Positions 1-10,072 of a stretch of 64,000 nt of DNA are shown piece by piece (within the stretch, counting starts at the first letter, position 1; the number at the start of each line of letters is the position of its first letter). The stretch spans positions 89,223 to 153,222 of IMG/VR virus record IMGVR_UViG_3300045988_136221; one strand, given 5' to 3'. The DNA is from a virus. The notes beneath the pieces were generated by a model. That model did not search any database. It was given only the letters and a program-made list of their open reading frames with translations, and had not been told where the DNA came from. The translations under genes were made by a program, and so were the position numbers.

Positions 1-145
1 GAGGAGTTTGATACTCCTCCTGTCTGTAAACCTCCTTTATTTACTTTGAAGGTTCGTATTAAAAAAGATCAATATCATGAAGGATATAGCGATATTATAA
101 AAATAGATAAAGGGGATAATAATATTACATTTACAAGCTTATACC

Positions 146-1105
146 ATGAAAGTAAAGAAAGCAGCGATAATTTATCATAAATCGGATTTAGATGGCGTTG
201 TATCGGCAGCCATCGCAACTATGTACGAAAACAGTAAAAACAAGGATGTTGTTTATATCCCGTATTCGTATGAAGATGATGTTAAGAAAGTTGTTGATAA
301 AGTAGATGAATGTGGGGTTGTTTATGTTCTTGACGTGTCTTTCGGATCCGATTCTAAAACGGTTTTCAAGAAATGGCTTGATGAAGGAAAGAGCCTGATG
401 TGGATAGACCATCATAAAGGAATTATTGAAGATAGTAAGACATGGGGGTTCGTAGTTCCAGGGTTGAGGAGAGTCGGTACGGCGGCTTGCGCGCTGGCCT
501 CGGACCTGCTGATGGGAAAGGTGCCGGCGATCGTCCGGTGCTTATCAGACTACGATGTATGGAATAAAGAATCTGAATTAGGCTGGGATACGGTAGTAGC
601 TGTCCAGTATGCCATGAGATCAAAAATAAGACTCAATGTGTTAATAGCATTGTCGTATTTGTATGACCATTTTAAAGAAAATATGAAGGACAATGAGGTG
701 GATTTAATTTTCTATGATCTCGCTAAAGAAGGACGTGCTATAATTAACTACATGGCCGGCAAAAACGAACAAGATGTAAGTAGGTATTCGTTCGAAGCTT
801 ACGTTGATGAGGTGAAGGTCGTGGCGATGAATACCGTAGAATCAGGCTCTAAAGTATTTGATTCTCTTACACCTGACTGGTTAGACGGTAGAAAAATTAA
901 AGCCCTGATGCCATTTTGTATCACGCCAGGTGGTAAAGTCCGGTTCTCTCTTTATGAATGCGTGGAAGACGGCGTAGATTGCTGTGAGGTAAGTAAGAGA
1001 TTCGGTGGTGGAGGACATGCTGGTGCTGCTGGGTTTGTTATAGACGTATCAAGTGACCAGTTTAAGGACTTCCTTGAAAACCGAAAACTTACTTCAATAC
1101 AATAA
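146..1105 (+). CDS. DHH/DHHA1-family phosphoesterase (RecJ/NrnA-like)
   Basis: Translated ORF carries DHH-family motifs in order: 'HKSDLDGVVSAA' (motif I DxD), 'MWIDHHKG' (DHH motif III), and the DHHA1 'FGGGGHAGAAGF' (GGGH) motif near the C-terminus. Confidence 0.75.
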   Translation: MKVKKAAIIYHKSDLDGVVSAAIATMYENSKNKDVVYIPYSYEDDVKKVVDKVDECGVVYVLDVSFGSDSKTVFKKWLDEGKSLMWIDHHKGIIEDSKTWGFVVPGLRRVGTAACALASDLLMGKVPAIVRCLSDYDVWNKESELGWDTVVAVQYAMRSKIRLNVLIALSYLYDHFKENMKDNEVDLIFYDLAKEGRAIINYMAGKNEQDVSRYSFEAYVDEVKVVAMNTVESGSKVFDSLTPDWLDGRKIKALMPFCITPGGKVRFSLYECVEDGVDCCEVSKRFGGGGHAGAAGFVIDVSSDQFKDFLENRKLTSIQ

Positions 1106-1122
1106 ATAAGGTCATGTTTTAA

Positions 1123-1154
1123 ATAGGATTGGTTTATATCAATCCTATTTTTTT
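1123..1154 (+). terminator. Rho-independent terminator after DHH gene
   Basis: Stem ataggatt/aatcctat with 10-nt loop, followed by T7 run. Confidence 0.5.
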
Positions 1155-1759
1155 GTGGTGTGTGGAGAGGTGGATGTAATGGATGAGATAAAATGTTTAT
1201 ATTATGAAGGTTAGGCAAAAAGGTTTATGTGATGAGGGAGAGGTAAAAAAATGGTTTGTGTAATGGGAGAGAGGGGATACCTACCACGAACCTCCCGCCC
1301 CCGAAACGCGTTTTCTCCCCCACGCCCCCTTCGCTGGAAAACCGGAAACGCGTTTTTACCTCAATCCTACAAACTCTCTGATTATCAACCATTTATTTAA
1401 ATTATTGATAATCAATGTATTGTTATAATATATTGATTATAAGCCACTTAAATAAACATATATCCCACATATTAATGTACGCGTATAATACCGTTCTTGT
1501 GTATTTTGTAACTTTCTGATAATCAGATAATAGAATCGAAATTAATACAAGTTAACAAAAAAAAGATAGCATATATATATGTAATACTGAAAAAGGTTGT
1601 ATATTTGCACAGTATTCAAGCGAGAATATTGGTGTTACATAATGAAGCTATATATATACTCCCGTTGGGTGTATTGTATGGTGATACCTTTTGCCTCTTT
1701 GCGTTGTAAAGTGGTAATATATTAGGGTGATATTGTTTAACAAATAAATACATAATGTT

Positions 1760-2299
1760 ATGATTACAAAGAAAAACGTTAACAAACTGCAAAATTCCGT
1801 TATTAAAGAAAATGCATCAAATTTGGTAGGTGCGGTAAAGTTGTATAATGCTTTATTTGCAAATGGTTCTGATCTTAAAGCAATTTGTAAGAAGTTGGAA
1901 ATACCAGCCGAATATGCTGTAAAGGTTGCAGCACTCGCAAAGGACAAAAAACGGCTGGTTGCCGTGTGTAGCCAAATGCTGCCTAAAGTAGATAATACCT
2001 TTGTTAAGTTTTCCCTATATTCTAAAGTATATAAGGATAACAAGGTGGACAAGGAAAAAGGAATTGAGGCAAAAACGGCTGACTGGTGCGCTGATAATGT
2101 GGTTTATGGCGGGGAATATAAATCTTTCGGTTTTTCAACCGCTGAGACATTGGAAGCTAAAAAAAGCGCAAAGTGGCTTGTTAAAGAAACGGACGAGTAT
2201 AAAGCTACTTATGTAGCCGTTAAGGTCAAATCTTATTCAATTCGTACCGTTGCAAAGTGTGTGAGTGAATATTTGGCGCACGAAAGCAACCAGCAGTAA
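1760..2299 (+). CDS. hypothetical protein (179 aa)
   Basis: ORF track; first gene after 650-bp non-coding region; no motif recognised. Confidence 0.5.
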   Translation: MITKKNVNKLQNSVIKENASNLVGAVKLYNALFANGSDLKAICKKLEIPAEYAVKVAALAKDKKRLVAVCSQMLPKVDNTFVKFSLYSKVYKDNKVDKEKGIEAKTADWCADNVVYGGEYKSFGFSTAETLEAKKSAKWLVKETDEYKATYVAVKVKSYSIRTVAKCVSEYLAHESNQQ

Positions 2300-2774
2300 A
2301 AAAGGTTAGGCGCGTACCGTTAAACGCGTCTGTACGCCGTTGTCAGTGGGTGAACGTCCCGCGTATGCTTTAGACTAAAGCTGACAAAACAGAGAGTTAT
2401 TTTACATATTGGGGATAAATATACCGTTATCGAAGCCGTTGGTATTTTAAAGAATCGGTATTACTGCATGTACTGCATTGAATAAATGTAGTTATGTTAG
2501 GTATGTTGGTACAGTTTGGAAAACATACCGTTGTACGTGGTTTGTCTCCATATCGAAACGTGTCTTACTTGTCCACACGCAAAATAGGATAGGGCTACGG
2601 AGAATCGTAGGGCGCAAACATGTAGCCTACCATGTAGGAACATGGAGCGTCAAAACGCAAGGACACAATCGCCTTTATTTGTGGCTAAGTTGTGTAGCAG
2701 ACGGAAAATATAATAACAACATAGTACGGGCCCACACTCAAGAACTACGTACTAATTGCGGGCTGTTGGTTGTA

Positions 2775-2802
2775 GCATAAAATTCGTATAGGATAGGAAT
2801 GC
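2775..2802 (+). other. hairpin with conserved loop (..TTCGTATAGGATAGG..), member of intergenic hairpin family
   Basis: Stem gcat/atgc around loop aaaattcgtataggatagga; loop resembles the other family members (GTGARGATAGG core); sits directly 5' of the GGTTCGATTCCGG box. Confidence 0.35.
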
Positions 2803-2808
2803 GCGTTC

Positions 2809-2853
2809 GGTTCGATTCCGGAACAACCACTGAATCAAAAATAATATAACAAC
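2809..2853 (+). promoter_or_regulatory. GGTTCGATTCCGG box + A-rich leader, 45 nt upstream of ATG 2854 (copy a)
   Basis: 13-nt GGTTCGATTCCGG (identical to tRNA T-arm consensus) followed by ..CAC.. and AATAATATAACAAC; same element at the same spacing upstream of genes at 4823 and 6070. Confidence 0.45.
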
Positions 2854-3060
2854 ATGGAAAGGAAATTTAAAAATCACTTGGTAGATGTACGCGGATTGTC
2901 CAGGAAAGAAGCCGCAAAGAAACGGAATGCAGCGTATCGTGAATTTATGTTGTATCGTGATATTCACGAAGCATATCATTCCGAAATAGGAAAAGATAAA
3001 TGCAAGCGTAAAACACATACATCACGAACATACGTGAAAGAAAACATAAACAGTATTTAA
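2854..3060 (+). CDS. hypothetical small basic protein (68 aa)
   Basis: ORF track; preceded by conserved box; followed by terminator. Confidence 0.5.
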   Translation: MERKFKNHLVDVRGLSRKEAAKKRNAAYREFMLYRDIHEAYHSEIGKDKCKRKTHTSRTYVKENINSI

Positions 3061-3067
3061 ATAGGAA

Positions 3068-3104
3068 TAGGGTTGTTCTGAATATCGGAACAGCCCTATT
3101 TTCG
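3068..3104 (+). terminator. Rho-independent terminator
   Basis: Stem tagggttgttc/gaacagcccta (one G-U) with loop tgaatatcg, then TTTT. Confidence 0.55.
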
Positions 3105-3261
3105 TATCCTACTCTTTCTATTTACGGGTAGGATATTCTGAGAGTGAACGGAGGATGCGGACAATATTGGTCTAAAACGAAACAAAAATAGTGACATTCG
3201 GATATAACGCCGGTATTTTGTCTATATATAATCGCTCTAATTGGTCTAAAACGAAACTAAA

Positions 3262-3307
3262 GGCGGTTTTCGGACCCAAAATAGGGTGTCGGATGCCGCC
3301 TTTTTCG
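3262..3307 (+). terminator. Rho-independent terminator-like hairpin
   Basis: ggcgg...ccgcc stem with structured interior, followed by TTTTT. Confidence 0.4.
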
Positions 3308-3413
3308 TCTCTATGGAATTGAAATTAGGCTTATTGTATTTTTCTTAAAAATAAGGTATTCTTGATTATCAATTAGTTAGGTTTTATAATATCCGTATTT
3401 TCGGACATACTTA

Positions 3414-3599
3414 TTGTATAATTTTTGTTTTATGTGGTGGTTTTTATTAGTCGCTGACCTATATTTTTTATCGGTTGGTATCCGTTCTATGTTAGAGTAC
3501 GGACCGGATCAGTATAATGTTGTAATGGTCTTTTGTTTTTTGTTATTGGCTATTGTTATAGGTTTGAATATCTATCTTGACAGGAGTAGGAGGCGGTAG
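3414..3599 (+). CDS. small hydrophobic membrane peptide (61 aa), putative
   Basis: ORF track; almost entirely hydrophobic (two predicted TM segments) with basic RRR tail; isolated ORF in otherwise non-coding 1.1-kb region. Confidence 0.35.
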   Translation: MYNFCFMWWFLLVADLYFLSVGIRSMLEYGPDQYNVVMVFCFLLLAIVIGLNIYLDRSRRR

Positions 3600-3786
3600 G
3601 GCGTGGGCTGAAGGTTCTCTATTCTCTCTATGGAATGATATTCTATCCAAACAACCCACACTCCATGCCATAGTATAAGCCTGTAGCGTCCTACTTAAGC
3701 CGGTAGTAGGTGTTAGAGCGTAGGTCCTATGCGGAAAGCGAGAAAGATGGACGGGAGTTGGAGAGGGGGAGAGGGAGGGCACTTCC

Positions 3787-4190
3787 TTCCCACAAAATTC
3801 AACAGATCAGAGTTTTAAAACAGTATTCTGTAGGTTTTCCCACAAAATTCAACAGATCAGAGTTTTAAAACAGTATTCTGTAGGTTTTCCCACAAAATTC
3901 AACAGATCAGAGTTTTAAAACAGTATTCTGTAGGTTTTCCCACAAAATTCAACAGATCAGAGTTTTAAAACAGTATTCTGTAGGTTTTCCCACAAAATTC
4001 AACAGATCAGAGTTTTAAAACAGTATTCTGTAGGTTTTCCCACAAAATTCAACAGATCAGAGTTTTAAAACAGTATTCTGTAGGTTTTCCCACAAAATTC
4101 AACAGATCAGAGTTTTAAAACCGCATAATGTGAGTTCCTTCCCACAAAATTCAACAGATTAGTAGTTTAAAACAGCATTCTATAGGTTAG
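3787..4190 (+). repeat. 50-bp direct tandem repeat array, ~8 units (6 perfect + 2 degenerate)
   Basis: Unit ttcccacaaaattcaacagatcagagttttaaaacagtattctgtaggtt repeats head-to-tail with exact 50-bp period from 3787; units 7-8 diverge (4121 onward). Each unit contains the 10-bp palindrome GTTTTAAAAC. Confidence 0.9.
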
Positions 4191-4219
4191 TAGTAAGTGA
4201 AATGTTTAACAATTAAAAT

Positions 4220-4489
4220 ATGGACAATATGAACGTATATGATTTTGCACCTGATTTAGATTTAAGTAAAGAAGTAGAAGGTTCCATTTTTGGGGTAAGA
4301 GGAATGGAAGGCAGTGATGGTATAGTATATGCTAAGGTAGTTAGCTGTATAGACGTCAAGGATTACAGTTGTGAGAGATGTATTTTTTATGATTGTTATA
4401 AGGATACATGTTCGTTATGGGGTAGTGATAGTTGTATAGATGGGGATTGGTTTTGTAGGTACGAACAGGCTGCCATAGAGGGGGAGTAG
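4220..4489 (+). CDS. Cys-rich small protein (89 aa)
   Basis: ORF track; 10 Cys in C-terminal half; immediately downstream of tandem array. Confidence 0.5.
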   Translation: MDNMNVYDFAPDLDLSKEVEGSIFGVRGMEGSDGIVYAKVVSCIDVKDYSCERCIFYDCYKDTCSLWGSDSCIDGDWFCRYEQAAIEGE

Positions 4490-4500
4490 GCGGCGTCTTG

Positions 4501-4540
4501 GGCTAAGGCCTGCGGTTGTAGGTAGGACGTAGGCCTTAGC
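4501..4540 (+). other. hairpin (10-bp stem ggctaaggcc/ggccttagc), conserved-loop family
   Basis: Loop tgcggttgtaggtaggacgta resembles the family loop; directly after stop of 4220..4489. Confidence 0.45.
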
Positions 4541-4594
4541 AGAACAAGAACAGTTTATTGTGGAACGTAAAAATAAAAAGGAGGAGATAGTGAT

Positions 4595-4675
4595 ATGAAA
4601 AAGGCATTTAAGATATTTTCTATTATGTTCGTCATAGAAATAGTGCTGATAGCTATTTTAGATGCTATGGCGTAA
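4595..4675 (+). CDS. 26-aa hydrophobic micropeptide (MKKAFKIFSIMFVIEIVLIAILDAMA), putative
   Basis: Not in ORF track (too short). Strong SD aaaaaGGAGGagatagtgat 7 nt before ATG 4595; TAA at 4673. Confidence 0.3.
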   Translation: MKKAFKIFSIMFVIEIVLIAILDAMA

Positions 4676-4717
4676 GTAATAAAAATTTCTTCATTAATTT
4701 TCTTATGCTTTAGACAG

Positions 4718-4747
4718 AGTGCCCCCGTCTGCGAAGATCGGAGCACT
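4718..4747 (+). other. hairpin with conserved loop (ccCGTCTGCGAAGATCGG)
   Basis: Stem agtgc/gcact; loop matches family core GTSYGYGARGAT. Confidence 0.4.
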
Positions 4748-4777
4748 TGCTTTATGGGATTCATGGTGAAATAGGTC

Positions 4778-4822
4778 GGTTCGATTCCGGCGATCTCACA
4801 CAATATTAAAAACAAATGAGGT
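4778..4822 (+). promoter_or_regulatory. GGTTCGATTCCGG box + leader, 45 nt upstream of ATG 4823 (copy b)
   Basis: GGTTCGATTCCGGCGATCTCACACAATATTAAAAACAAATGAGGT-ATG; aligns with copies at 2809 and 6027. Confidence 0.45.
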
Positions 4823-5227
4823 ATGTTAAAAGAAGAATTTGAAGACTTTATTAAGAGAGAGGTAAGTGATGAACTTTACAAAGATATAGAGGTAGTGTAT
4901 AATGCTCTGCCTGAATATATGGATAAGTTGTATTTTGCAGACGCTATATTAAAAGATACAGGGAAGACTGTAAATGTTTTGTCGGCTTTAGGAGTACACA
5001 TACGTGAATTGAATAACGCACGCATAATCGAAAAAGAAAAGATTAGATCGTGTGCGTATGATTTGATACATAAGGCTCATGACGAAGATGATTTAACAGC
5101 AAGGGAGATTGCTGTTAAATTGATCGGAGAAAGGGAAACGGTAGCGTATTCTGTAAGGGAGGGTCTGCCATTATGGGAGCATGATAAAAAGTTTATAATA
5201 GAGTTAATGAAGGAGGAAAGAAAATGA
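4823..5227 (+). CDS. hypothetical protein (134 aa)
   Basis: ORF track; ATGA stop/start overlap with next gene. Confidence 0.55.
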   Translation: MLKEEFEDFIKREVSDELYKDIEVVYNALPEYMDKLYFADAILKDTGKTVNVLSALGVHIRELNNARIIEKEKIRSCAYDLIHKAHDEDDLTAREIAVKLIGERETVAYSVREGLPLWEHDKKFIIELMKEERK

Positions 5228-5571
5228 AAGATGGCATTACATTACATCCGGAATATGGATTGAATCCGTCTATAGAAGTCTGCATGATATGTGGCGAAGA
5301 GATGGGGATTGCTTTATTAGGGAATAACATCAAAGGGCAGGCACCGCATCATATATGCACGGGCGGAGTATGTGACAATTGCAAAAAGATAATAGATGAT
5401 GGTGGTTGTTTTATTATCGAGGTTGAAGATGGTTCAGATCAAAAGAATCCGTATCGTACAGGAAGATATTGCGCGATAAAGAAAGGGGTGGCAAAGAAAA
5501 TGTTTGGAAAGGAACATAGCATTGTGTACATGGAAAAGTCTGCATTCAGTCAAATGATACCACAAAAATGA
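5224..5571 (+). CDS. zinc-ribbon-containing protein (115 aa)
   Basis: ORF track; CxxC..C..C..CxxC pattern (CMICGEE...HHICTGGVCDNCKK); AGGAGG SD upstream. Confidence 0.55.
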   Translation: MKDGITLHPEYGLNPSIEVCMICGEEMGIALLGNNIKGQAPHHICTGGVCDNCKKIIDDGGCFIIEVEDGSDQKNPYRTGRYCAIKKGVAKKMFGKEHSIVYMEKSAFSQMIPQK

Positions 5572-5894
5572 AGAAGGATATGTTTACAAAAGAAGAGCGA
5601 TTATTCATATGGAAACAAGTATGTGATATAATCGATAGGTCAGAGGATGGGGAATACATATGCATTGCATTAAGAAATGTAGTATTTTATTTTTTCAAAA
5701 CACATAAAGAAATAAAAATTATGAGTTTAGACGAAATGGTGAGAATATATTTCCCGGAATTGAGGGCAAGGAGAAGTATGGCTACAGAACCAGAGGAAAT
5801 ATGGAGGATATATGGATGGTTTGGTTGTATTAGTCCAGAAACGAAGGAGGTAAGACTGAATATTGTAAAAGATATCATAAAAGAATTAGAATAG
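5568..5894 (+). CDS. hypothetical protein (108 aa)
   Basis: ORF track; overlaps previous stop. Confidence 0.5.
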   Translation: MKKDMFTKEERLFIWKQVCDIIDRSEDGEYICIALRNVVFYFFKTHKEIKIMSLDEMVRIYFPELRARRSMATEPEEIWRIYGWFGCISPETKEVRLNIVKDIIKELE

Positions 5895-5941
5895 TATTTT
5901 TGTTAACCTATTTTATTCATCAAATTAAGTTTTTGGGTTTT

Positions 5942-5980
5942 GGCATGTCGGTTCGTGAGGATAGGCATGCCTATTTTTAT
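5942..5980 (+). terminator. terminator-like hairpin with conserved loop (TCGGTTCGTGAGGATAGG)
   Basis: Stem ggcatg/catgcc, followed by tatttttat. Confidence 0.5.
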
Positions 5981-6026
5981 GTCATAGAGGGATGACGCGG
6001 CGTGCCGGCATGTATGTACCGGTTCT

Positions 6027-6069
6027 GGTTCGATTCTGGGCATCTCACAAACAATAAAACAAAAGAGTT
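6027..6069 (+). promoter_or_regulatory. GGTTCGATTCTGG box + leader, 43 nt upstream of ATG 6070 (copy c)
   Basis: GGTTCGATTCTGGGCATCTCACAAACAATAAAACAAAAGAGTT-ATG. Confidence 0.45.
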
Positions 6070-6303
6070 ATGAGAATATACAAGAATGATATTATAAAGG
6101 CGTCAGCGATAAGCACCAGCGACGACAGGGGATTATTACTGTGTTCAATAACAGATTCGGGATTCACGTCTATAGCTGGTGTAATATCGGCTATTAAAGA
6201 CAAGTTGCCAAACAAAGATCATAAGAAGATGGTTTTTGAAATTTTGAACGATACGAAAAAAGAATACGGAAGATATAATAATTGCGGAGGAAAAGTGTTA
6301 TGA
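6070..6303 (+). CDS. hypothetical protein (77 aa)
   Basis: ORF track. Confidence 0.5.
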   Translation: MRIYKNDIIKASAISTSDDRGLLLCSITDSGFTSIAGVISAIKDKLPNKDHKKMVFEILNDTKKEYGRYNNCGGKVL

Positions 6304-6515
6304 AAAAAAATATAAAGAGCTTTTTATTGCCTTTAATATTGGCGAGCATGGTTGATGATCCTTATAGAGTAAGACGTATTCATAGTAACAATCATCCTAA
6401 ACCAGTAAAAAGGGATGAAAAGAACAGGATAGAGAGGGAGTTCGATATCAATGGAAAGAAAATAATGGCTTATTCAAGAAAGGATGCCATTAAAAGATTA
6501 AAACATAAGAAGTAG
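6282..6515 (+). CDS. hypothetical basic protein with N-terminal hydrophobic segment (77 aa)
   Basis: ORF track; possible signal/TM segment FLLPLILASMV. Confidence 0.45.
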   Translation: MRRKSVMKKNIKSFLLPLILASMVDDPYRVRRIHSNNHPKPVKRDEKNRIEREFDINGKKIMAYSRKDAIKRLKHKK

Positions 6516-6562
6516 AAAACGGATTTTTATGTTAATGTTAGTTTTTTCATTTTTATTGAAAG

Positions 6563-6600
6563 GAGCGCCGGCCTGTGAAGGTATGCGCTCTTTGTATTTG
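6563..6600 (+). terminator. terminator-like hairpin with conserved loop (CGGCCTGTGAAGGTAT)
   Basis: Stem gagcgc/gcgctc followed by tttgtatttg. Confidence 0.5.
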
Positions 6601-6624
6601 TATAATGCATAAAACAATAATAAT

Positions 6625-6879
6625 ATGACAGAGAATAGTATAGACGTAAATATCGTACCTGTAAAGAATGGTATGAAACGTGTTGTGGTATCATATTACC
6701 ATTATTCACGCAAGGAGAAAGATCGCATGAGTTCTCAAACGGATTACGTGTGGGAAACAGGGAATGAAGAGATGTTTAAATACTTTGAGGCCAGGAGGAC
6801 AAAAGTGTTTTATAGTCAGATTCGTGCCATGTGTAGATTCTATGGCAAGAAAAATGTACGTAAATACAAAAAGCTATGA
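6625..6879 (+). CDS. hypothetical protein (84 aa)
   Basis: ORF track; ATGA overlap with next gene. Confidence 0.5.
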   Translation: MTENSIDVNIVPVKNGMKRVVVSYYHYSRKEKDRMSSQTDYVWETGNEEMFKYFEARRTKVFYSQIRAMCRFYGKKNVRKYKKL

Positions 6880-7685
6880 TATTAAAAACGACAACCAACG
6901 AGTTTTGTTTCATTAACGTAAGTTTCTATGAAACAATAGCAGATCCTCGCTATTTCTTTGAACAGGATTATGAAGAGATGCCGGAATATGAGGAAGAATC
7001 GGATTTTGATTTTGATTCTTATTGCAATAAGTTTATTCCTTTTGTACAGGAATGGGCGAATGAGGTAAGTGAACGCCTTTACGGATATGGCGTGAATAAC
7101 ATAAAGGTAACATCGGTCGGACATCCGAGAGAATACAATTATTATACTGATTGGATGAATGTGGAGGTAGAATTTTGTGATGAATGGAGGCAAAAGATGT
7201 TATCTAACATTGGTAAGATTGTCAATGATGATAAATGCAAGAAGTATGCGGAAGCCAATAATCGGTCAGTATCAGGATACATCTTTTTAGGACCTGATGA
7301 TTTAAAGGAATTTGAAAAGGAAATAATAGAAAAGAAGTCGGATTCGAAATATGATATAACAATATTATTAAATATGTATCTAACTTTGGCTTTTGTAAAA
7401 GAATTTGGATTTGAAGCCGAAAAAGCGTGGAATGATATAACAGGACATGCTTACGAATGTTTGTCGTATTCTGATTTTGCAACAATAGAAACACTTATAC
7501 CAGAAGGTTCGGAATATTTATTCAAAGACGTTTACACAGCGAAGGCCGACGAATTGTATCATCATGTCCTGGATAAATTCGGATGGGCGTGGCGTGATCC
7601 GAAATATAAATCGGAAACAGAATTATGCGCGATGTTAAAGTGGGCAAAAGAGAAAGGCTTGACCATTGAAGAGTTAAGTATTTAA
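6876..7685 (+). CDS. hypothetical protein (269 aa)
   Basis: ORF track. Confidence 0.55.
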   Translation: MILKTTTNEFCFINVSFYETIADPRYFFEQDYEEMPEYEEESDFDFDSYCNKFIPFVQEWANEVSERLYGYGVNNIKVTSVGHPREYNYYTDWMNVEVEFCDEWRQKMLSNIGKIVNDDKCKKYAEANNRSVSGYIFLGPDDLKEFEKEIIEKKSDSKYDITILLNMYLTLAFVKEFGFEAEKAWNDITGHAYECLSYSDFATIETLIPEGSEYLFKDVYTAKADELYHHVLDKFGWAWRDPKYKSETELCAMLKWAKEKGLTIEELSI

Positions 7686-7698
7686 TTGTTAAACATAA

Positions 7699-7730
7699 GG
7701 CAGTAGTGGTGCGTGAGTATAGGTGCTGCC
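7699..7730 (+). other. hairpin with conserved loop (..GGTGCGTGAGTATAGG..)
   Basis: Stem ggcag/ctgcc directly after stop of 6876..7685. Confidence 0.4.
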
Positions 7731-7997
7731 GTTAAATTATTTTATAATATGAAAAAGGAAGAGATTCAAACTATTTTATACACAATCAAAGAAGGAGACA
7801 GTATTAAGATCAAAGTACAAGACAAAAGTGAAGAAATAAGATTGCGGGATCATGTAAGAAGAACGCAGAAATACGGATACCGGTTTTGCTTATCTCATTT
7901 GCATGATGGGATTTTCTATCTGGAGAAGTTAGAAGAGGGGGATAAAGATAAATACTATAGAGTAATCAACAGAGGAAATGGAAAGACCGGAGTATAA
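7713..7997 (+). CDS. hypothetical protein (94 aa)
   Basis: ORF track. Confidence 0.45.
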   Translation: MSIGAAVKLFYNMKKEEIQTILYTIKEGDSIKIKVQDKSEEIRLRDHVRRTQKYGYRFCLSHLHDGIFYLEKLEEGDKDKYYRVINRGNGKTGV

Positions 7998-8271
7998 TAA
8001 GCTACGTAAAATGGCTAAGACTACTCCAGGTCTGATAGTGGACGAGGCGCAAAACATGATGCGTGTATCGCTGTATGATAATGGGGAACTTAAGAAGATC
8101 GTAGTAGTAATGAAATGCGATTCTTTTTTACAGTCAAAAAGTAACATAGAAAAGATAATGTTATTATCATCTTCTATAGAAGATAGAAAAAACAAAGAAA
8201 AAAATAAAACAAAATCAGAAAATGAACAGAATAACAAAAATAAGAGAAGAAATAGGAGGAAAACAGGTTGA
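7978..8271 (+). CDS. hypothetical protein with K/N-rich tail (97 aa)
   Basis: ORF track. Confidence 0.45.
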   Translation: MERPEYNKLRKMAKTTPGLIVDEAQNMMRVSLYDNGELKKIVVVMKCDSFLQSKSNIEKIMLLSSSIEDRKNKEKNKTKSENEQNNKNKRRNRRKTG

Positions 8272-8605
8272 TTTGACCTTTTATGGGCGTTTTTGCAGCC
8301 TTATTGAAGGTGATAGAAAGATAATACTAAAGGCAATAAAAAACGGTCGTAAGAAAGGCGTAATCGGAGCCATTCAGCCTGGAAGACATGATAGAATTTG
8401 GACCACATGGGCTATTGCTTTTGAGGATCTGAAGGTAGGGGATACGGTAGAGTTTAGTACATCCGGGAAATACAATCCAGGTTTTCATTCTACAGAAAAG
8501 TATGTAGGATGTGTAGAATGGATAAAAGGATCGGAATGTGCGATAAAAACCGGCAAAGGGATGGCAGTAGTATTAATTAAACACGTGGAAAGGGTAGTAA
8601 GATGA
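8222..8605 (+). CDS. hypothetical protein (127 aa)
   Basis: ORF track; 50-nt overlap with previous ORF so true start may be internal. Confidence 0.45.
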   Translation: MNRITKIREEIGGKQVDLTFYGRFCSLIEGDRKIILKAIKNGRKKGVIGAIQPGRHDRIWTTWAIAFEDLKVGDTVEFSTSGKYNPGFHSTEKYVGCVEWIKGSECAIKTGKGMAVVLIKHVERVVR

Positions 8606-8883
8606 AATTGAGAGAATTTGTAGAACTCTTTGATAAGAATGATGTAAAGGATTTGTTTAAGTCATTATCTTTATGTATGGAATACGTAAGGATAGATTTA
8701 CATGTATTTAATGTAGGTGCTTATGTTACGTGCCTGTACAGTAATGATCTTGAACAGCTTTCAACGATGAAAGGGTGCGCTATATACGCGATAGTAGAAG
8801 TACCATGTTTATTTGAGGCATTTATGGAATATGCTTCACCGGAATTGAAAGCATATTATGATAAACTAACGAAAGAAGTGTGA
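8602..8883 (+). CDS. hypothetical protein (93 aa)
   Basis: ORF track; ATGA overlap. Confidence 0.5.
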   Translation: MKLREFVELFDKNDVKDLFKSLSLCMEYVRIDLHVFNVGAYVTCLYSNDLEQLSTMKGCAIYAIVEVPCLFEAFMEYASPELKAYYDKLTKEV

Positions 8884-8884
8884 C

Positions 8885-9367
8885 ATGAAAGAGGAAGTAG
8901 AACGGATAAAGAAGTTGGTTGGCATAGATCATGATAGATGGGAGCAACCTTGTACATGTGATAAATGTAAGAATATGTGTAAGGTTCCTTGTATTGGTAC
9001 GCCAAAAGACATAGAGGCTATCATAGATGCCGGATACGCTGATAGGTTAAAAGAAACAATGTGGATGGTAGGGTATCTTGCAGTGAAGGAAAAACCAATA
9101 GCGATGATCCAGCCGACAGAGAAAGACGGGTGGTGCGCATTCCGCCGGCCAGACGGTCTCTGCGAGCTGCATGACCGTGGACTAAAGCCGACCGAAGGAG
9201 TTCTGGCTTCCTGTAAGATGATTGAAGAAGACAATGTTCCAACATACGAAACGTCTGTACTTAGAGCAGTGGCTAATGAGTGGGTTAAGGTGGAGAACTT
9301 TGGAGATATAATGAGGGTCGTTTTTAAATTTTTGCATGAAAATGAACGTAGAAAACAAATTAGATAA
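8885..9367 (+). CDS. Cys-rich protein (160 aa)
   Basis: ORF track; CTCDKCKNMCKVPC cluster. Confidence 0.5.
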   Translation: MKEEVERIKKLVGIDHDRWEQPCTCDKCKNMCKVPCIGTPKDIEAIIDAGYADRLKETMWMVGYLAVKEKPIAMIQPTEKDGWCAFRRPDGLCELHDRGLKPTEGVLASCKMIEEDNVPTYETSVLRAVANEWVKVENFGDIMRVVFKFLHENERRKQIR

Positions 9368-9746
9368 AGTAGTTAAGATCCTAAAAGAAAAAGGATTTGT
9401 GGTATATAGAAAGGGCGGAAAGGAGCCGGGTGTATTTTACGCCAAAGAAGGTGACAGCCGGATAGGATTCGTTTATCCCAACAACGGATATATATATGAT
9501 AGAATAAAAATGTGGTCTTTTTCAAGGATATATAAACCACATAAGAAAACCGGGTCTTCGTGTTTAATGAGCGTCAGCGACGAATTTACGATAGAGAATG
9601 CGATTAAGAACATAGAGGATAGACTGTGGGTAAATTATGTAAAAGACGGTAACAGAAAACGACCAGAAGAATACAATAATATAAGAGAATTTGTTGGTAG
9701 CTTCACTAAATTCTACAACTCTGTAGAATTAGTTGAGGTTAAGTAG
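9336..9746 (+). CDS. hypothetical protein (136 aa)
   Basis: ORF track. Confidence 0.5.
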   Translation: MKMNVENKLDKVVKILKEKGFVVYRKGGKEPGVFYAKEGDSRIGFVYPNNGYIYDRIKMWSFSRIYKPHKKTGSSCLMSVSDEFTIENAIKNIEDRLWVNYVKDGNRKRPEEYNNIREFVGSFTKFYNSVELVEVK

Positions 9747-9767
9747 TTTTCCATGTAAGTTAGTTAC

Positions 9768-9803
9768 CGGCACTGGTCTGTGAAGATAGGTGTCGTTTTT
9801 TTT
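9768..9803 (+). terminator. Rho-independent terminator with conserved loop (TGGTCTGTGAAGATAG)
   Basis: Stem cggcac/gtgtcg (one G-U) followed by T8 (9796-9803). Confidence 0.65.
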
Positions 9804-9820
9804 AAGAAAGGAGGATAAAG

Positions 9821-10072
9821 ATGGAGAAAAGAGACAAGGAAATGCCTTACGAGGTAATCATACAGGAGAGAAACAAAGTGGATTTATACGGTAACGTAGT
9901 ATATTATATATATTGGTTTGATAAATATGGGAACGATATTACAAACGAATGGAAATTCTGGAGCAAGGGTCCGAAAAAGAAATATGATAGAGTCAATCGC
10001 TATTTAACGGATAGTTGGCTAAAGGAATACTGTAAGAACAACAATTTAAAAATAAGTAGAATAAAGGAATGA
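9821..10072 (+). CDS. hypothetical protein (83 aa)
   Basis: ORF track; AGGAGG SD upstream. Confidence 0.55.
   Translation: MEKRDKEMPYEVIIQERNKVDLYGNVVYYIYWFDKYGNDITNEWKFWSKGPKKKYDRVNRYLTDSWLKEYCKNNNLKISRIKE

What the first reader, a model, noticed from the sequence alone, without database searches (positions are those of the whole stretch)
2809..6069. T-loop-like GGTTCGATTCYGG box at a fixed ~45 nt upstream of three start codons
The 13-mer GGTTCGATTCCGG (one copy GGTTCGATTCTGG) occurs exactly three times: 2809, 4778 and 6027. Each lies 45, 45 and 43 nt before the ATGs of genes 2854, 4823 and 6070. Each is followed by a similar ..ATCTCAC/AACCAC.. and A-rich AATA..AAAACAA leader, and each is preceded within 10-60 nt by a member of the conserved-loop hairpin family. 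The 13-mer is the canonical tRNA T-stem-loop sequence (G53-T54-Psi55-C56-R57-A58). A T-loop module in mRNA leaders could act as a tRNA-like processing signal (RNase P or Z punctuation), a recognition site for a phage regulator, or an unusual promoter. A sigma-A -35/-10 reading does not fit the spacing well.
Basis: seen in the sequence. Interest (0 to 1): 0.65.

Follow-up and report, generated by a model that had tools for sequence, protein, structure and literature searches.

The report
Mini tRNA-like elements between phage genes
The repeated 13-base box is the T-arm of three stripped-down tRNA look-alikes that sit just upstream of early genes in a gut crAss-like phage and are under strong selection, most likely so that the host's tRNA-trimming enzymes cut the phage's long early transcripts into separate messages.

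Summary
GGTTCGATTCYGG occurs exactly three times (2809, 4778, 6027, + strand), 45/45/43 nt before ATGs; no shuffle gave any exact match.

Each box is the T-arm of a 45-64 nt tRNA-like element (TLE1 2767-2830, TLE2 4755-4799, TLE3 5988-6048). A 6-7 bp acceptor-like stem abuts a 5-bp T-stem exactly as in tRNA, but D and anticodon arms are missing. None is a real tRNA by ARAGORN or Rfam.

The window is an epsilon crAss-like phage (Epsilonunovirus, about 84-90% identical to OR575929), and the elements lie near its genome terminus among small early ORFans.

In 79 relatives collected without reference to the box, T-loops (diversity 0.008) and acceptor strands (0.019) are far more constrained than synonymous sites (0.157), while linkers and leaders are not. 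T-stem changes are compensatory. T-loop variants follow the tRNA rule TΨCRANY.

The phage's real tRNAs share the layout: terminator-type hairpin, tRNA, no encoded CCA, short A-rich leader, ATG.

Best reading (about 0.5): phage counterparts of plant-mitochondrial t-elements, cut by RNase P and RNase Z. Cleavage itself is untested.

Promoter, host-tRNA attP copy and neutral pseudogene readings are disfavoured.

The parts
2767..2830 (+). TLE1, a 64-nt tRNA-like element. Acceptor 5' strand UGGUUGU 2767-2773. Central arm 2775-2802 (GCAU/AUGC outer stem, AUUC/GGAU inner stem). T-stem 2806-2810 / 2818-2822. T-loop UUCGAUU 2811-2817. Acceptor 3' strand ACAACCA 2823-2829. Position-73 C at 2830.
   Evidence: Folds alone into acceptor + central arm + T-arm. 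ARAGORN -ps80 calls a degenerate tRNA at exactly these ends. Rfam tRNA-Sec model aligns acceptor and T-arm at 11 bits, far below the gathering score of 47. Chance of the 7/7 acceptor pairing is about 0.004. On 21 variants: 94.8% of cells paired, 4 pairs with double changes, covariation score reached by 0/500 shuffles.
2831..2853 (+). 23-nt A-rich leader between TLE1 and the ATG of ORF 2854..3060 (68 aa, ORFan)
   Evidence: Leader length mode is 23 nt across relatives. Leaders are poorly conserved (diversity 0.137).
4717..4748 (+). Terminator-type hairpin upstream of TLE2: outer stem, C x C mismatch, GUCU/AGAU inner stem, GCGA tetraloop, then UUGCUUUA
   Evidence: Fold. Compensatory changes G-C<->A-U, U-A<->C-G and C-G<->A-U among relatives.
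4755..4799 (+). TLE2, a 45-nt acceptor/T-arm minihelix. Acceptor 5' UGGGAUU 4755-4761. 13-nt linker 4762-4774. T-stem 4775-4779 / 4787-4791. T-loop 4780-4786. Acceptor 3' GAUCUCA 4792-4798. C73 at 4799.
   Evidence: MFE and centroid are exactly this structure, though the energy is no better than shuffles (z = -0.06). Acceptor pairing P is about 0.05. A variant in L060 has three 3'-strand changes that all keep pairing.
4800..4822 (+). 23-nt leader to the ATG of ORF 4823..5227 (134 aa, phrog_15742, unknown function)
   Evidence: In many relatives TLE2 is joined instead to the homologue of ORF 5224..5571 with a 29-nt leader.
5942..5971 (+). Terminator-type hairpin upstream of TLE3: GGCAUGUC / G x A / GUUC-GUGA-GGAU / GGCAUGCC, then UAUUUUUA
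   Evidence: Fold z = -3.1. Family scan. Pair table.
5988..6048 (+). TLE3, a 61-nt tRNA-like element. Acceptor 5' AGGGAUG 5988-5994. Linker 5995-6004. Central hairpin 6005-6022 (dispensable). T-stem 6024-6028 / 6036-6040 (wobble-rich). T-loop 6029-6035. Acceptor 3' CAUCUCA 6041-6047. C73 at 6048.
   Evidence: 6 of 7 acceptor pairs, not significant alone (P about 0.4). Its own MFE prefers another fold. On 27 variants 93% of cells are paired and the T-stem 99%, but only one-sided changes occur. Relaxed ARAGORN puts a 3' end at 6048. Two natural variants lack the central hairpin.
6049..6069 (+). 21-nt leader to the ATG of ORF 6070..6303 (77 aa, ORFan)

Best explanation
Each box is the T-arm of a degenerate, tRNA-derived RNA element (TLE). 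The element keeps only the part of a tRNA that tRNA-processing enzymes recognise: a 6-7 bp acceptor stem stacked on a 5-bp T-stem with a canonical T-loop, a C at position 73, and no encoded CCA.

The TLEs are transcribed as part of + strand early transcripts of an epsilon crAss-like phage. They lie between a terminator-type hairpin, or a long non-coding stretch in the case of TLE1, and a 20-29 nt A-rich leader of the next gene cassette.

Proposed mechanism (inferred, not shown):
- Host RNase P cuts at the TLE 5' end. This leaves the upstream message ending in its protective hairpin.
- RNase Z, or an equivalent 3' endonuclease, cuts after position 73. This releases the downstream message with a short unstructured leader suited to Shine-Dalgarno-independent initiation in Bacteroidia.

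On this reading the TLEs punctuate polycistronic early RNA, as tRNAs do in mitochondria and t-elements do in plant mitochondria. Because TLE plus leader is a self-contained 5' module, it also serves as the junction at which gene cassettes are exchanged between related phages.

Shown: the structure, its strand, its selection, its context, and the parallel with the phage's real tRNAs. Inferred: transcription through the hairpins, and cleavage.
For: 1. Geometry. The acceptor 3' strand starts immediately after the T-stem in all three. Pairing is 7/7 (TLE1, P about 0.004), 7/7 with two G.U (TLE2, P about 0.05) and 6/7 (TLE3). TLE1 and TLE2 fold this way on their own. Relaxed ARAGORN reproduces the TLE1 ends 2767-2830 and the TLE3 3' end 6048.

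2. Selection, in 79 loci gathered through the NrnA protein (unbiased for the box). Diversity: T-loops 0.008, acceptor strands 0.019, N73 0, T-stems 0.054, codon positions 1+2 0.046, codon position 3 0.157, linkers 0.09, leaders 0.137. P<=0.0004 against random position-3 sets.

3. RNA-type covariation. TLE1 T-stem and central arm show C-G<->U-A double changes (4 pairs, 8/500 shuffles; covariation score 0/500; slid controls <=51% paired). G.U states occur at 17 pair positions against A.C at 3. This points to the + strand.

4. T-loop variants are 57G>A, 59U>G/A/C and 60U>C, with only one at position 55. That matches the tRNA consensus TΨCRANY.

5. Same layout for the real tRNAs of the lineage. 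A family hairpin ends 6 nt before tRNA-Met and 4 nt before tRNA-Arg. All four tRNAs lack encoded CCA. tRNA-Cys (T-loop GGTTCGATTCCGC, 12/13 identical to the box) is followed after 16 nt by an ATG.

6. Portable module. Each TLE type precedes 2-4 unrelated gene families at near-constant leader length.

7. Precedent. Plant-mitochondrial t-elements with a perfect GGTTCRANYCC arm are cut by RNase Z and RNase P to make mRNA ends (PMC1920247).
Against: - There are no transcript-end data. No host is cultured for this phage group.
- Folding energies are no better than shuffles (z = -1.6, -0.06, -0.2), and the TLE3 MFE is a different fold.
- Within the lineage the acceptor stems are invariant or change on one side only, so their support comes from complementarity and conservation, not covariation.
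- In most relatives pair 1-72 is mismatched in TLE1 (U x U). It is always mismatched in TLE3.
- There is no D-loop to form the tRNA elbow.
- The upstream hairpins look like intrinsic terminators. If they terminate efficiently, the TLEs would not be reached, and no promoter could be located.
- The elements were found only in one genus-level lineage. A more distant phage (L201) has none.
- T-loop identity among the three copies could be helped by gene conversion.
Confidence: 0.5

Rival explanations
1. The TLE is a cis-acting structure that is not cleaved. It stays on the mRNA as a 5'-UTR or intercistronic fold. It could protect the message from 5'-end-dependent decay, insulate the A-rich ribosome-loading leader from upstream structure, or bind a T-arm-recognising protein (TruB, TrmA, EF-Tu, phage Ro60 or a phage regulator) to tune translation.
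For: Purifying selection on the acceptor/T-arm module and a fixed 20-29 nt distance to the ATG fit any RNA-level cis function. Junctions without a TLE also place a stable hairpin 25-33 nt before the ATG (6560-6593, 9768-9795), so 'structure then short leader' is a general design here.
Against: A plain hairpin would do for protection or insulation. The tRNA-specific features have no obvious reason under this view: the T-loop consensus pattern, the 12-bp acceptor/T stack, an invariant position 73, and absence of CCA. The phage's real tRNAs, which must be excised, occupy the same position.
Confidence: 0.2
2. The released TLE RNA is itself the product. It would be a small tRNA-like RNA that acts in trans. 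Possible roles: a decoy or competitor for host tRNA-targeting defence nucleases or tRNA-processing and modification enzymes; a partner of the phage's Ro60 / Y-RNA quality-control system; or, after CCA addition, a chargeable minihelix (TLE2 and TLE3 carry G2-C71, G3.U70 and G4-C69 like tRNA-Ala and tmRNA).
For: The lineage encodes a Ro60-related protein next to a YrlA-like RNA (28.5 bits, E = 2e-4) and two tRNAs, and PNK and NrnA next to the tRNA cluster. That is unusual investment in tRNA-like RNA biology. G3.U70 in TLE2 and TLE3 is nearly invariant.
Against: TLE1-3 hit neither the YrlA nor the tmRNA model. They have no anticodon arm for anticodon nucleases to attack. G3.U70 is absent from TLE1 and from one TLE2 variant. 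Position 73 is C, not the A favoured by AlaRS. Linkers, which would carry trans-acting specificity, are the least conserved part.
Confidence: 0.12
3. The TLEs are decaying tRNA pseudogenes with no function of their own. They matter only as short repeats at which homologous recombination shuffles early-gene cassettes.
For: TLE1 resembles the phage tRNA-Cys in T-arm, acceptor 3' strand and trailer (GGTTCGATTCCG..CAA.CCTCTAAA). Mosaic junctions fall just after the TLEs, and one genome joins TLE2 to the gene normally behind TLE3. The elements are restricted to one lineage.
Against: T-loops and acceptor strands are 8-19 times less diverse than synonymous sites and less diverse than nonsynonymous positions, while adjacent linkers and leaders drift. 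Compensatory changes maintain helices. The same reduced module was kept in elements whose acceptor sequences differ. Breakpoints lie in the leader or at the start codon, not in the shared 13-mer.
Confidence: 0.08
4. The box is a DNA signal: a promoter for the virion RNA polymerase or a phage-modified host polymerase, possibly an N4-like DNA hairpin, or an operator for a phage regulator.
For: The three copies lie 0.3-2.9 kb from the PhageTerm-defined terminus, in front of early-type genes, at a fixed distance from the ATGs. Early promoters of crAss-like virion RNAPs are unknown, and that enzyme prefers single-stranded templates.
Against: Conservation is discontinuous and matches paired RNA strands. 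The leader, where a start site would lie, is as variable as synonymous sites. Helices tolerate G.U but rarely A.C. On the template (-) strand the TLE3 T-stem would carry three A.C mismatches, so an N4-style template-strand hairpin cannot form. T-loop variation follows tRNA rules. Sigma-70 and Bacteroidota -33/-7 scans are at background.
Confidence: 0.07

Closest known systems
t-elements of plant mitochondria (Forner et al. 2007, PMC1920247)
   Same: Non-canonical tRNA-like folds with a perfectly conserved T (pseudouridine) arm GGTTCRANYCC and an acceptor-like stem, embedded in mRNA precursors next to coding regions. Their borders coincide with mRNA 5' and 3' ends made by RNase Z and RNase P.
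   Different: They are organellar, not viral, and there is no sequence homology. The t-element ends were mapped experimentally, whereas nothing is mapped here. The phage elements are smaller (45-64 nt), sit at a nearly fixed 20-29 nt from the start codon, and are paired with a GNRA hairpin upstream.
tRNA punctuation of mitochondrial polycistronic transcripts, and MALAT1/mascRNA-type 3'-end formation (own knowledge: Ojala et al. 1981; Wilusz et al. 2008)
   Same: tRNA or a tRNA-like fold is used as the cleavage signal that separates RNAs. In MALAT1 a stabilising structure lies just upstream of the RNase P site, like the hairpin 6-16 nt upstream of TLE2 and TLE3.
   Different: Those systems are eukaryotic or organellar. 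mascRNA is a full cloverleaf. No bacterial-virus example was found in the searched literature.
Genuine tRNA genes co-transcribed with mRNAs, including this phage's own tRNA-Met/Gln/Arg/Cys cluster
   Same: Same strand, same hairpin-then-tRNA arrangement, no encoded CCA, and a short A-rich leader then ATG after tRNA-Cys. The tRNA-Cys T-loop is 12/13 identical to the box.
   Different: TLEs lack D and anticodon arms, fail ARAGORN default and Rfam tRNA thresholds, and cannot decode.
YrlA / bacterial Y RNA tRNA-like domain (Rfam RF02553)
   Same: A tRNA-mimicking non-tRNA with a canonical T-arm. One sub-threshold YrlA-like gene exists in this phage lineage next to a Ro60 homologue.
   Different: TLE1-3 do not match the YrlA model. 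They have no D-arm and no Ro60-binding stem, lie about 75 kb from the Ro60 gene, and are placed directly upstream of ORFs.
PeSL (promoter-early stem-loop) cassettes of T4-type phages (own knowledge: Arbiol et al. 2010)
   Same: Short repeated regulatory modules flank small early ORFs in a hyperplastic region and act as junctions for modular gene shuffling.
   Different: PeSLs are defined by a sigma-70 early promoter plus a stem-loop. No promoter is detectable here, and the repeated unit is a tRNA-like RNA fold.

Membership tests
Canonical tRNA (ARAGORN; Rfam RF00005 clan) | Full cloverleaf with D-arm and anticodon arm, scoring above the detector or gathering threshold | tested here: not met
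   ARAGORN default finds 0 genes. Rfam finds nothing at E<=10 in 1-10000. Best small-region hit is tRNA-Sec at 11.2 bits against a gathering score of 47 for TLE1; none for TLE2 or TLE3. Only at 60-80% thresholds does ARAGORN give degenerate calls.
Canonical tRNA (ARAGORN; Rfam RF00005 clan) | 5-bp T-stem with a 7-nt T-loop T54-Psi55-C56-R57-A58-N59-Y60 | tested here: met
   UUCGAUU loop and a 5-bp stem in all three. Natural variants change only positions 57 (R), 59 and 60 (Y), apart from one at 55.
Canonical tRNA (ARAGORN; Rfam RF00005 clan) | 7-bp acceptor stem whose 3' strand directly follows the T-stem, then a discriminator base | tested here: met
   7/7 (TLE1 in the window; 6/7 in most relatives), 7/7 (TLE2) and 6/7 (TLE3). 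Position 73 is always C.
t-element-type tRNA-like processing signal | Conserved GGTTCRANYCC arm within a non-canonical tRNA-like fold embedded in an mRNA precursor | tested here: met
   The definition is taken from PMC1920247.
t-element-type tRNA-like processing signal | Transcript 5'/3' ends coincide with the element's borders; cleavage by RNase Z or RNase P; non-templated C/CA/CCA on the released element | not testable with these tools
   No transcriptome or cleavage data are available for this uncultured phage group.
YrlA / Y RNA (RF02553) | Match to the covariance model: Ro60-binding stem plus a permuted T-arm/D-arm tRNA-like domain | tested here: not met
   No YrlA hit at E<=10 over TLE1-3. 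As a positive control, the lineage's own YrlA-like locus scores 28.5 bits.
tmRNA tRNA-like domain | Detected tmRNA with a tag-peptide reading frame and a tRNA-Ala-like acceptor ending in A73-CCA | tested here: not met
   ARAGORN tmRNA search is negative even at -ps80. Position 73 is C and no CCA is encoded. G3.U70 is present only in TLE2 and TLE3.
Sigma-70 or Bacteroidota primary-sigma promoter | -35/-10 hexamers, or -33 TTTG and -7 TAnnTTTG, at proper spacing and enriched over background | tested here: not met
   Both scans are at shuffle level, and none is positioned consistently relative to the boxes.
N4-type DNA-hairpin promoter for a virion RNAP | Stable hairpin on the template strand | tested here: not met
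   The TLE3 T-stem has three G.U pairs on the + strand, which become A.C mismatches on the template strand. G.U states outnumber A.C states overall (17 vs 3 positions). The requirement for the template strand is from my own knowledge of N4.
attP-type copy of a host tRNA 3' half | T-arm plus acceptor 3' strand identical to a cellular tRNA gene; an integrase nearby | tested here: not met
   Scan of 185,579 representative genomes gave 4 hits, none inside a tRNA; one is this phage misbinned into a MAG. No integrase was found by the authors of PMC11054128.
PeSL-like mobile regulatory cassette | Repeated regulatory module at junctions of alternative early-gene cassettes | tested here: met
   Each TLE type is followed by 2-4 unrelated gene families. 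Coverage drops at the ATG.
PeSL-like mobile regulatory cassette | The module contains an early promoter | tested here: inconclusive
   No consensus promoter was found, but the promoter type of this phage is unknown.

The most novel reading that the evidence does not exclude
The excised TLE minihelices are functional small RNAs in their own right. After RNase P and RNase Z release and CCA addition, they would act as tRNA mimics. Possible roles are titrating or decoying host tRNA-directed defence or processing enzymes, feeding the phage's own Ro60 / Y-RNA / PNK RNA-quality-control system, or, for TLE2 and TLE3 with G3.U70, being charged like tRNA-Ala minihelices. The same element would then both punctuate early mRNAs and produce a trans-acting tRNA-like RNA.
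Probability: 0.1. Interest if true: 0.85.

Novelty: new variant of a known kind. Interest (0 to 1): 0.58.

Why it matters
How crAss-like phages, the most abundant viruses of the human gut, express their early genes is unresolved. The one studied virion RNA polymerase showed no shared promoter motif upstream of its early transcripts.

If these elements are cut by RNase P and RNase Z, a bacterial virus would be using tRNA-style punctuation to turn long early transcripts into defined, stable, translatable messages. That strategy is known from mitochondria and from a few eukaryotic long non-coding RNAs, and I found no description of it for phage mRNAs.

It would also explain how early-gene cassettes are swapped between related phages as ready-to-express units. 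In addition, it would provide compact, portable processing tags for engineering polycistronic expression in Bacteroidia.

The prediction can be tested directly, because the expected cleavage positions are defined to the nucleotide.

Tried and rejected
1. Genuine or cryptic tRNA. ARAGORN default, intron mode, mitochondrial modes and tmRNA mode, plus Rfam at E<=10, give nothing above threshold.

2. Promoter by consensus. Sigma-70 and Bacteroidota -33/-7 scans are at background. A recurring TATGCTTTAGAC 12-mer (2364, 4704) is not enriched once mismatches are allowed.

3. Host tRNA 3'-half / attP origin. The genome-contig scan is negative.

4. Thermodynamic support. Fold z-scores of the isolated TLEs are not significant, so I do not rely on them.

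5. My loose structural descriptor (T-arm plus any >=6/7 acceptor within 70 nt) is not significant by count (3 observed vs 1.65 expected). Significance comes from per-element tests, conservation and covariation.

6. More divergent relatives. NrnA-seeded IMG/VR loci are all >=90% identical. The annotated phage collection holds only OR575929 from this group. A 44%-identity homologue context (L201) has no TLE. Breadth beyond the genus therefore remains unknown.

7. A combined covariance model of the three types was abandoned because MAFFT could not keep the 5' acceptor strands in register.

8. The first literature search for the phage name, as written in the record ('csAssE'), gave only noise. The relevant paper was found through 'crAss-like' + 'Siberia'.

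9. The conservation table from box-selected loci was discarded as biased and replaced by the NrnA-anchored set.

Full report
**1. The observation.** GGTTCGATTCYGG occurs exactly three times in the 64-kb window, at 2809, 4778 and 6027, all on the + strand. None of 100 dinucleotide-preserving shuffles produced a single exact match. The boxes start 45, 45 and 43 nt before the ATGs at 2854, 4823 and 6070. A hairpin of a recognisable family (outer stem, 1x1 mismatch, 4-bp inner stem, GNRA tetraloop) precedes box 2 (4717-4748) and box 3 (5942-5971), but not box 1. ARAGORN finds no tRNA or tmRNA in the window. Rfam finds nothing at E<=10 in 1-10000.

**2. What genome this is.** The window is 84-90% identical to phage crAssE-Sib (written 'csAssE-Sib' in the GenBank record; OR575929, 151 kb, human gut). 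That phage is an epsilon crAss-like phage of the proposed genus Epsilonunovirus. Its predicted hosts are Bacteroidia, it encodes a virion RNA polymerase distantly like phi14:2 gp66, and six tRNAs are annotated (PMC11054128). The PhageTerm-defined genome start of that record corresponds to about window position 3144. TLE1 and its gene therefore lie about 0.3 kb on one side of the terminus, and TLE2 and TLE3 lie 1.6 and 2.9 kb on the other. All are in a block of small same-strand ORFans typical of early genes. The paper does not mention these elements, and none is annotated in the record.

**3. Anatomy.**
- In each copy the box is flanked so that a 5-bp T-stem forms around the 7-nt loop UUCGAUU.
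- The 7 nt immediately after the T-stem pair with a 7-mer 13-32 nt upstream of the T-stem. This is the geometry of a tRNA acceptor stem.
- TLE1 (2767-2830): UGGUUGU/ACAACCA. TLE2 (4755-4799): UGGGAUU/GAUCUCA. TLE3 (5988-6048): AGGGAUG/CAUCUCA, 6 of 7 pairs.
- Each is followed by a C at position 73 and no CCA.
- Between the acceptor 5' strand and the T-arm: TLE1 has a bulged central arm, TLE2 has only a 13-nt linker, and TLE3 has a 7-bp hairpin that two natural variants have lost. There is no D-arm or anticodon arm.
- With thresholds relaxed to 80%, ARAGORN calls TLE1 as a degenerate 64-nt tRNA at exactly 2767-2830 and ends its TLE3 call at 6048.
- The Rfam tRNA-Sec model aligns the TLE1 acceptor and T-arm at 11 bits, against a gathering score of 47.
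- These are therefore tRNA-derived shapes, not tRNAs.

**4. How strong is the structural claim?**
- In the window alone, the acceptor pairing has chance probabilities of about 0.004 (TLE1), 0.05 (TLE2) and 0.4 (TLE3).
- A loose descriptor search is not significant by count.
- Folding energies are no better than shuffles, and the TLE3 MFE is another fold.
- The case therefore rests on comparative data from more than 150 related contigs.

**5. Comparative evidence.** I used 79 loci collected through the NrnA-like protein at 146..1105, so they are unbiased with respect to the box. Nucleotide diversity in those loci:

| Site class | Diversity |
|---|---|
| T-loops | 0.008 |
| Acceptor strands | 0.019 |
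| Position 73 | 0 |
| Codon positions 1+2 | 0.046 |
| T-stems | 0.054 |
| TLE linkers | 0.09 |
| Other intergenic DNA | 0.09-0.15 |
| Leaders | 0.137 |
| Third codon positions | 0.157 |

- The constrained parts are exactly the paired strands and the T-loop, which are separated by drifting sequence.
- On 21 TLE1 variants, 94.8% of cells are paired, against <=51% for slid partners. Four pairs show changes on both sides (8/500 shuffles reach this). No shuffle reaches the covariation score (0/500). The double changes lie in the T-stem and the central arm.
- TLE3 is 93% paired (T-stem 99%) but changes only on one side, through wobble pairs. It does no better than shuffles.
- Across the helices, G.U states occur at 17 pair positions and A.C at 3. 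That fits a fold of the + strand RNA and not of the complementary strand.
- T-loop variants are 57G>A, 59U>G/A/C and 60U>C, with a single exception at position 55. These are the positions that the tRNA consensus TΨCRANY allows to vary.

**6. The phage's real tRNAs share the context.**
- About 6 kb upstream, outside the window, relatives carry tRNA-Met, Gln, Arg and Cys on the same strand.
- None encodes CCA.
- tRNA-Met starts 6 nt after a hairpin of the same family, and tRNA-Arg 4 nt after another. There is no room for a promoter, so these hairpins must be transcribed through.
- tRNA-Cys has the T-loop GGTTCGATTCCGC (12/13 identical to the box). After 16 A-rich nt it is followed by the ATG of the next gene.
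- The TLE1 T-arm, acceptor 3' strand and trailer resemble those of tRNA-Cys, which suggests descent from such a gene.
- The arrangement hairpin / tRNA-like fold / short leader / ATG is thus used with real tRNAs and with TLEs alike.

**7. Cassette junctions.**
- Downstream of each TLE the sequence of relatives switches between unrelated genes. TLE1 is followed by at least three families, TLE2 by at least three and TLE3 by three.
- The leader length stays near 23, 29/23 and 20-21 nt respectively.
- Alignment coverage drops at the ATG.
- One genome joins TLE2 to the gene that normally follows TLE3.
- TLE plus leader therefore behaves as a portable 5' module.

**8. Mechanism.**
- The retained module is an acceptor/T stack of 11-12 bp, a T-loop, an unpaired position 73 and no CCA.
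- From established knowledge, this is the minimal substrate of RNase P (minihelix substrates), of RNase Z acting on CCA-less precursors, and of the CCA-adding enzyme.
- The closest documented analogue is the plant-mitochondrial t-element. It has a perfectly conserved GGTTCRANYCC arm in a non-canonical tRNA-like fold, with ends that coincide with mRNA 5' and 3' termini made by RNase Z and RNase P (PMC1920247).
- I therefore propose that RNase P cuts at the TLE 5' end, leaving the upstream message ending in its GNRA hairpin. This layout is also seen in MALAT1/mascRNA.
- RNase Z would cut after position 73, releasing the downstream message with a 20-29 nt unstructured A-rich leader.
- Transcription through the hairpins and both cleavages are inferences.

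**9. Rivals.**
- **Uncleaved cis structure** (stability, insulation or protein binding). This cannot be excluded, but it does not explain the tRNA-specific constraints.
- **Trans-acting released RNA.** This is made more plausible by the lineage's Ro60 homologue with an adjacent YrlA-like RNA (28.5 bits, E = 2e-4, below the gathering score of 69) and by PNK and NrnA next to the tRNA cluster. However, TLE1-3 match neither the YrlA nor the tmRNA model, and their linkers are the least conserved part.
- **Neutral tRNA pseudogenes.** Contradicted.
- **Promoter or operator.** Disfavoured by the discontinuous conservation, the variable leader, the G.U/A.C asymmetry (the TLE3 T-stem could not form on the template strand) and background-level promoter scans.
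- **Copy of a host tRNA 3' half (attP).** Not supported. None of 185,579 representative genomes has the motif inside a tRNA.

**10. Limits.**
- All TLE-bearing genomes found belong to one genus-level lineage.
- A more distant phage carrying a homologue of ORF 5224..5571 has no TLE within the 20 kb examined.
- No other epsilon crAss-like genome was available in the annotated collection.
- No expression data exist.
- Literature searches found no description of tRNA-like punctuation in phage mRNAs. The library is incomplete.

**11. Verdict.**
- The box is the T-arm of three selected, tRNA-derived RNA minihelices (confidence about 0.85).
- Their role as RNase P / RNase Z punctuation signals is the best-supported mechanism (about 0.5) but is untested.
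- It is a new variant of a known kind (t-element or tRNA-punctuation type signals) in a new setting, the early operons of a crAss-like phage.

Noticed in passing
window 3787-4188: Tandem array of 8 copies of a 50-bp unit (94% matches; TTCCCACAAAATTCAACAGATCAGAGTTTTAAAACAGTATTCTGTAGGTT). It lies about 650 bp inside the PhageTerm-defined genome terminus (about 3144) and just upstream of the first inward-facing early ORF (4220). Each unit contains a 10-bp inverted repeat. Many IMG/VR contigs of this lineage break around here. It could be an origin, a packaging or ejection signal, or an early-promoter array.
   Followed up: partly
window 4717-4748, 5942-5971, 6560-6593, 9768-9795 (+); 54710-54677, 48065-48032, 60274-60243, 59823-59788 (-); L003 545-576 and 761-792: A family of terminator-type hairpins with a shared design: 6-10 bp outer stem, usually a 1x1 or 2x2 mismatch, a 4-bp inner stem and a GNRA tetraloop, then U-rich sequence. 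They show clear compensatory changes among relatives. Several are followed within 20-35 nt by the next ATG, or within 4-6 nt by a tRNA. They therefore seem to be read through, and may act as RNA 3'-end stabilisers or processing sites rather than simple terminators.
   Followed up: partly
L211 20601-20705 (OR575929 about 72,601-72,705), outside the window: A sub-threshold Y RNA-like (YrlA, RF02553) match: 28.5 bits, E = 2e-4, gathering score 69. It has the typical permuted T-arm/D-arm layout. It lies immediately upstream of tRNA-Tyr, tRNA-Lys and a gene annotated as a Ro sixty-related protein (73,091-74,725). A crAss-like phage carrying a Ro60 / Y RNA module is not mentioned in the text of the genome paper that I searched.
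   Followed up: partly
window 146-1105 and upstream (OR575929 2615-4409): An NrnA-like DHH phosphodiesterase and a polynucleotide kinase/3'-phosphatase lie between the tRNA cluster and the TLE region. Together with Ro60 and YrlA this suggests an RNA repair or quality-control toolkit.
   Followed up: no
window 1106-1759: A 650-bp AT-rich non-coding stretch with a 30-nt imperfect inverted repeat (1392-1421 / 1427-1456), nested palindromes around TTGATAATCA, and two copies of CCSGAAACGCGTTTT (1300, 1342). Many IMG/VR contigs end in this interval. Diversity here (0.153) is as high as at synonymous sites.
   Followed up: partly
L001 2541-2699 (OR575929 148,558-148,716; WOZ57404.1): An annotated 52-aa 'hypothetical protein' CDS in crAssE-Sib covers the hairpin and TLE3 orthologue. 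It is probably a spurious ORF call over structured non-coding RNA.
   Followed up: no
L208 (NZ_DXLG01000138.1, 3.9-kb contig of a 'Veillonella sp.' MAG): This contig carries the phage's hairpin-TLE2-gene sequence almost unchanged. It is most likely a phage contig misbinned into a Firmicutes MAG, not evidence about the host.
   Followed up: no
window 4596-4675: A 26-codon ORF encoding a hydrophobic peptide (MKKAFKIFSIMFVIEIVLIAILDAMA). It is preceded by AAGGAGGAGATAGTGAT and lies between the hairpin at 4502-4540 and the hairpin upstream of TLE2. It is conserved in crAssE-Sib (annotated CDS at L001 1196-1315).
   Followed up: no
window 2364-2375 and 4704-4715: The exact 12-mer TATGCTTTAGAC recurs about 400 nt upstream of TLE1 and about 50 nt upstream of TLE2, just before the hairpin. 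It is not enriched when mismatches are allowed (7 found vs 7.2 expected). Its meaning is unknown.
   Followed up: yes
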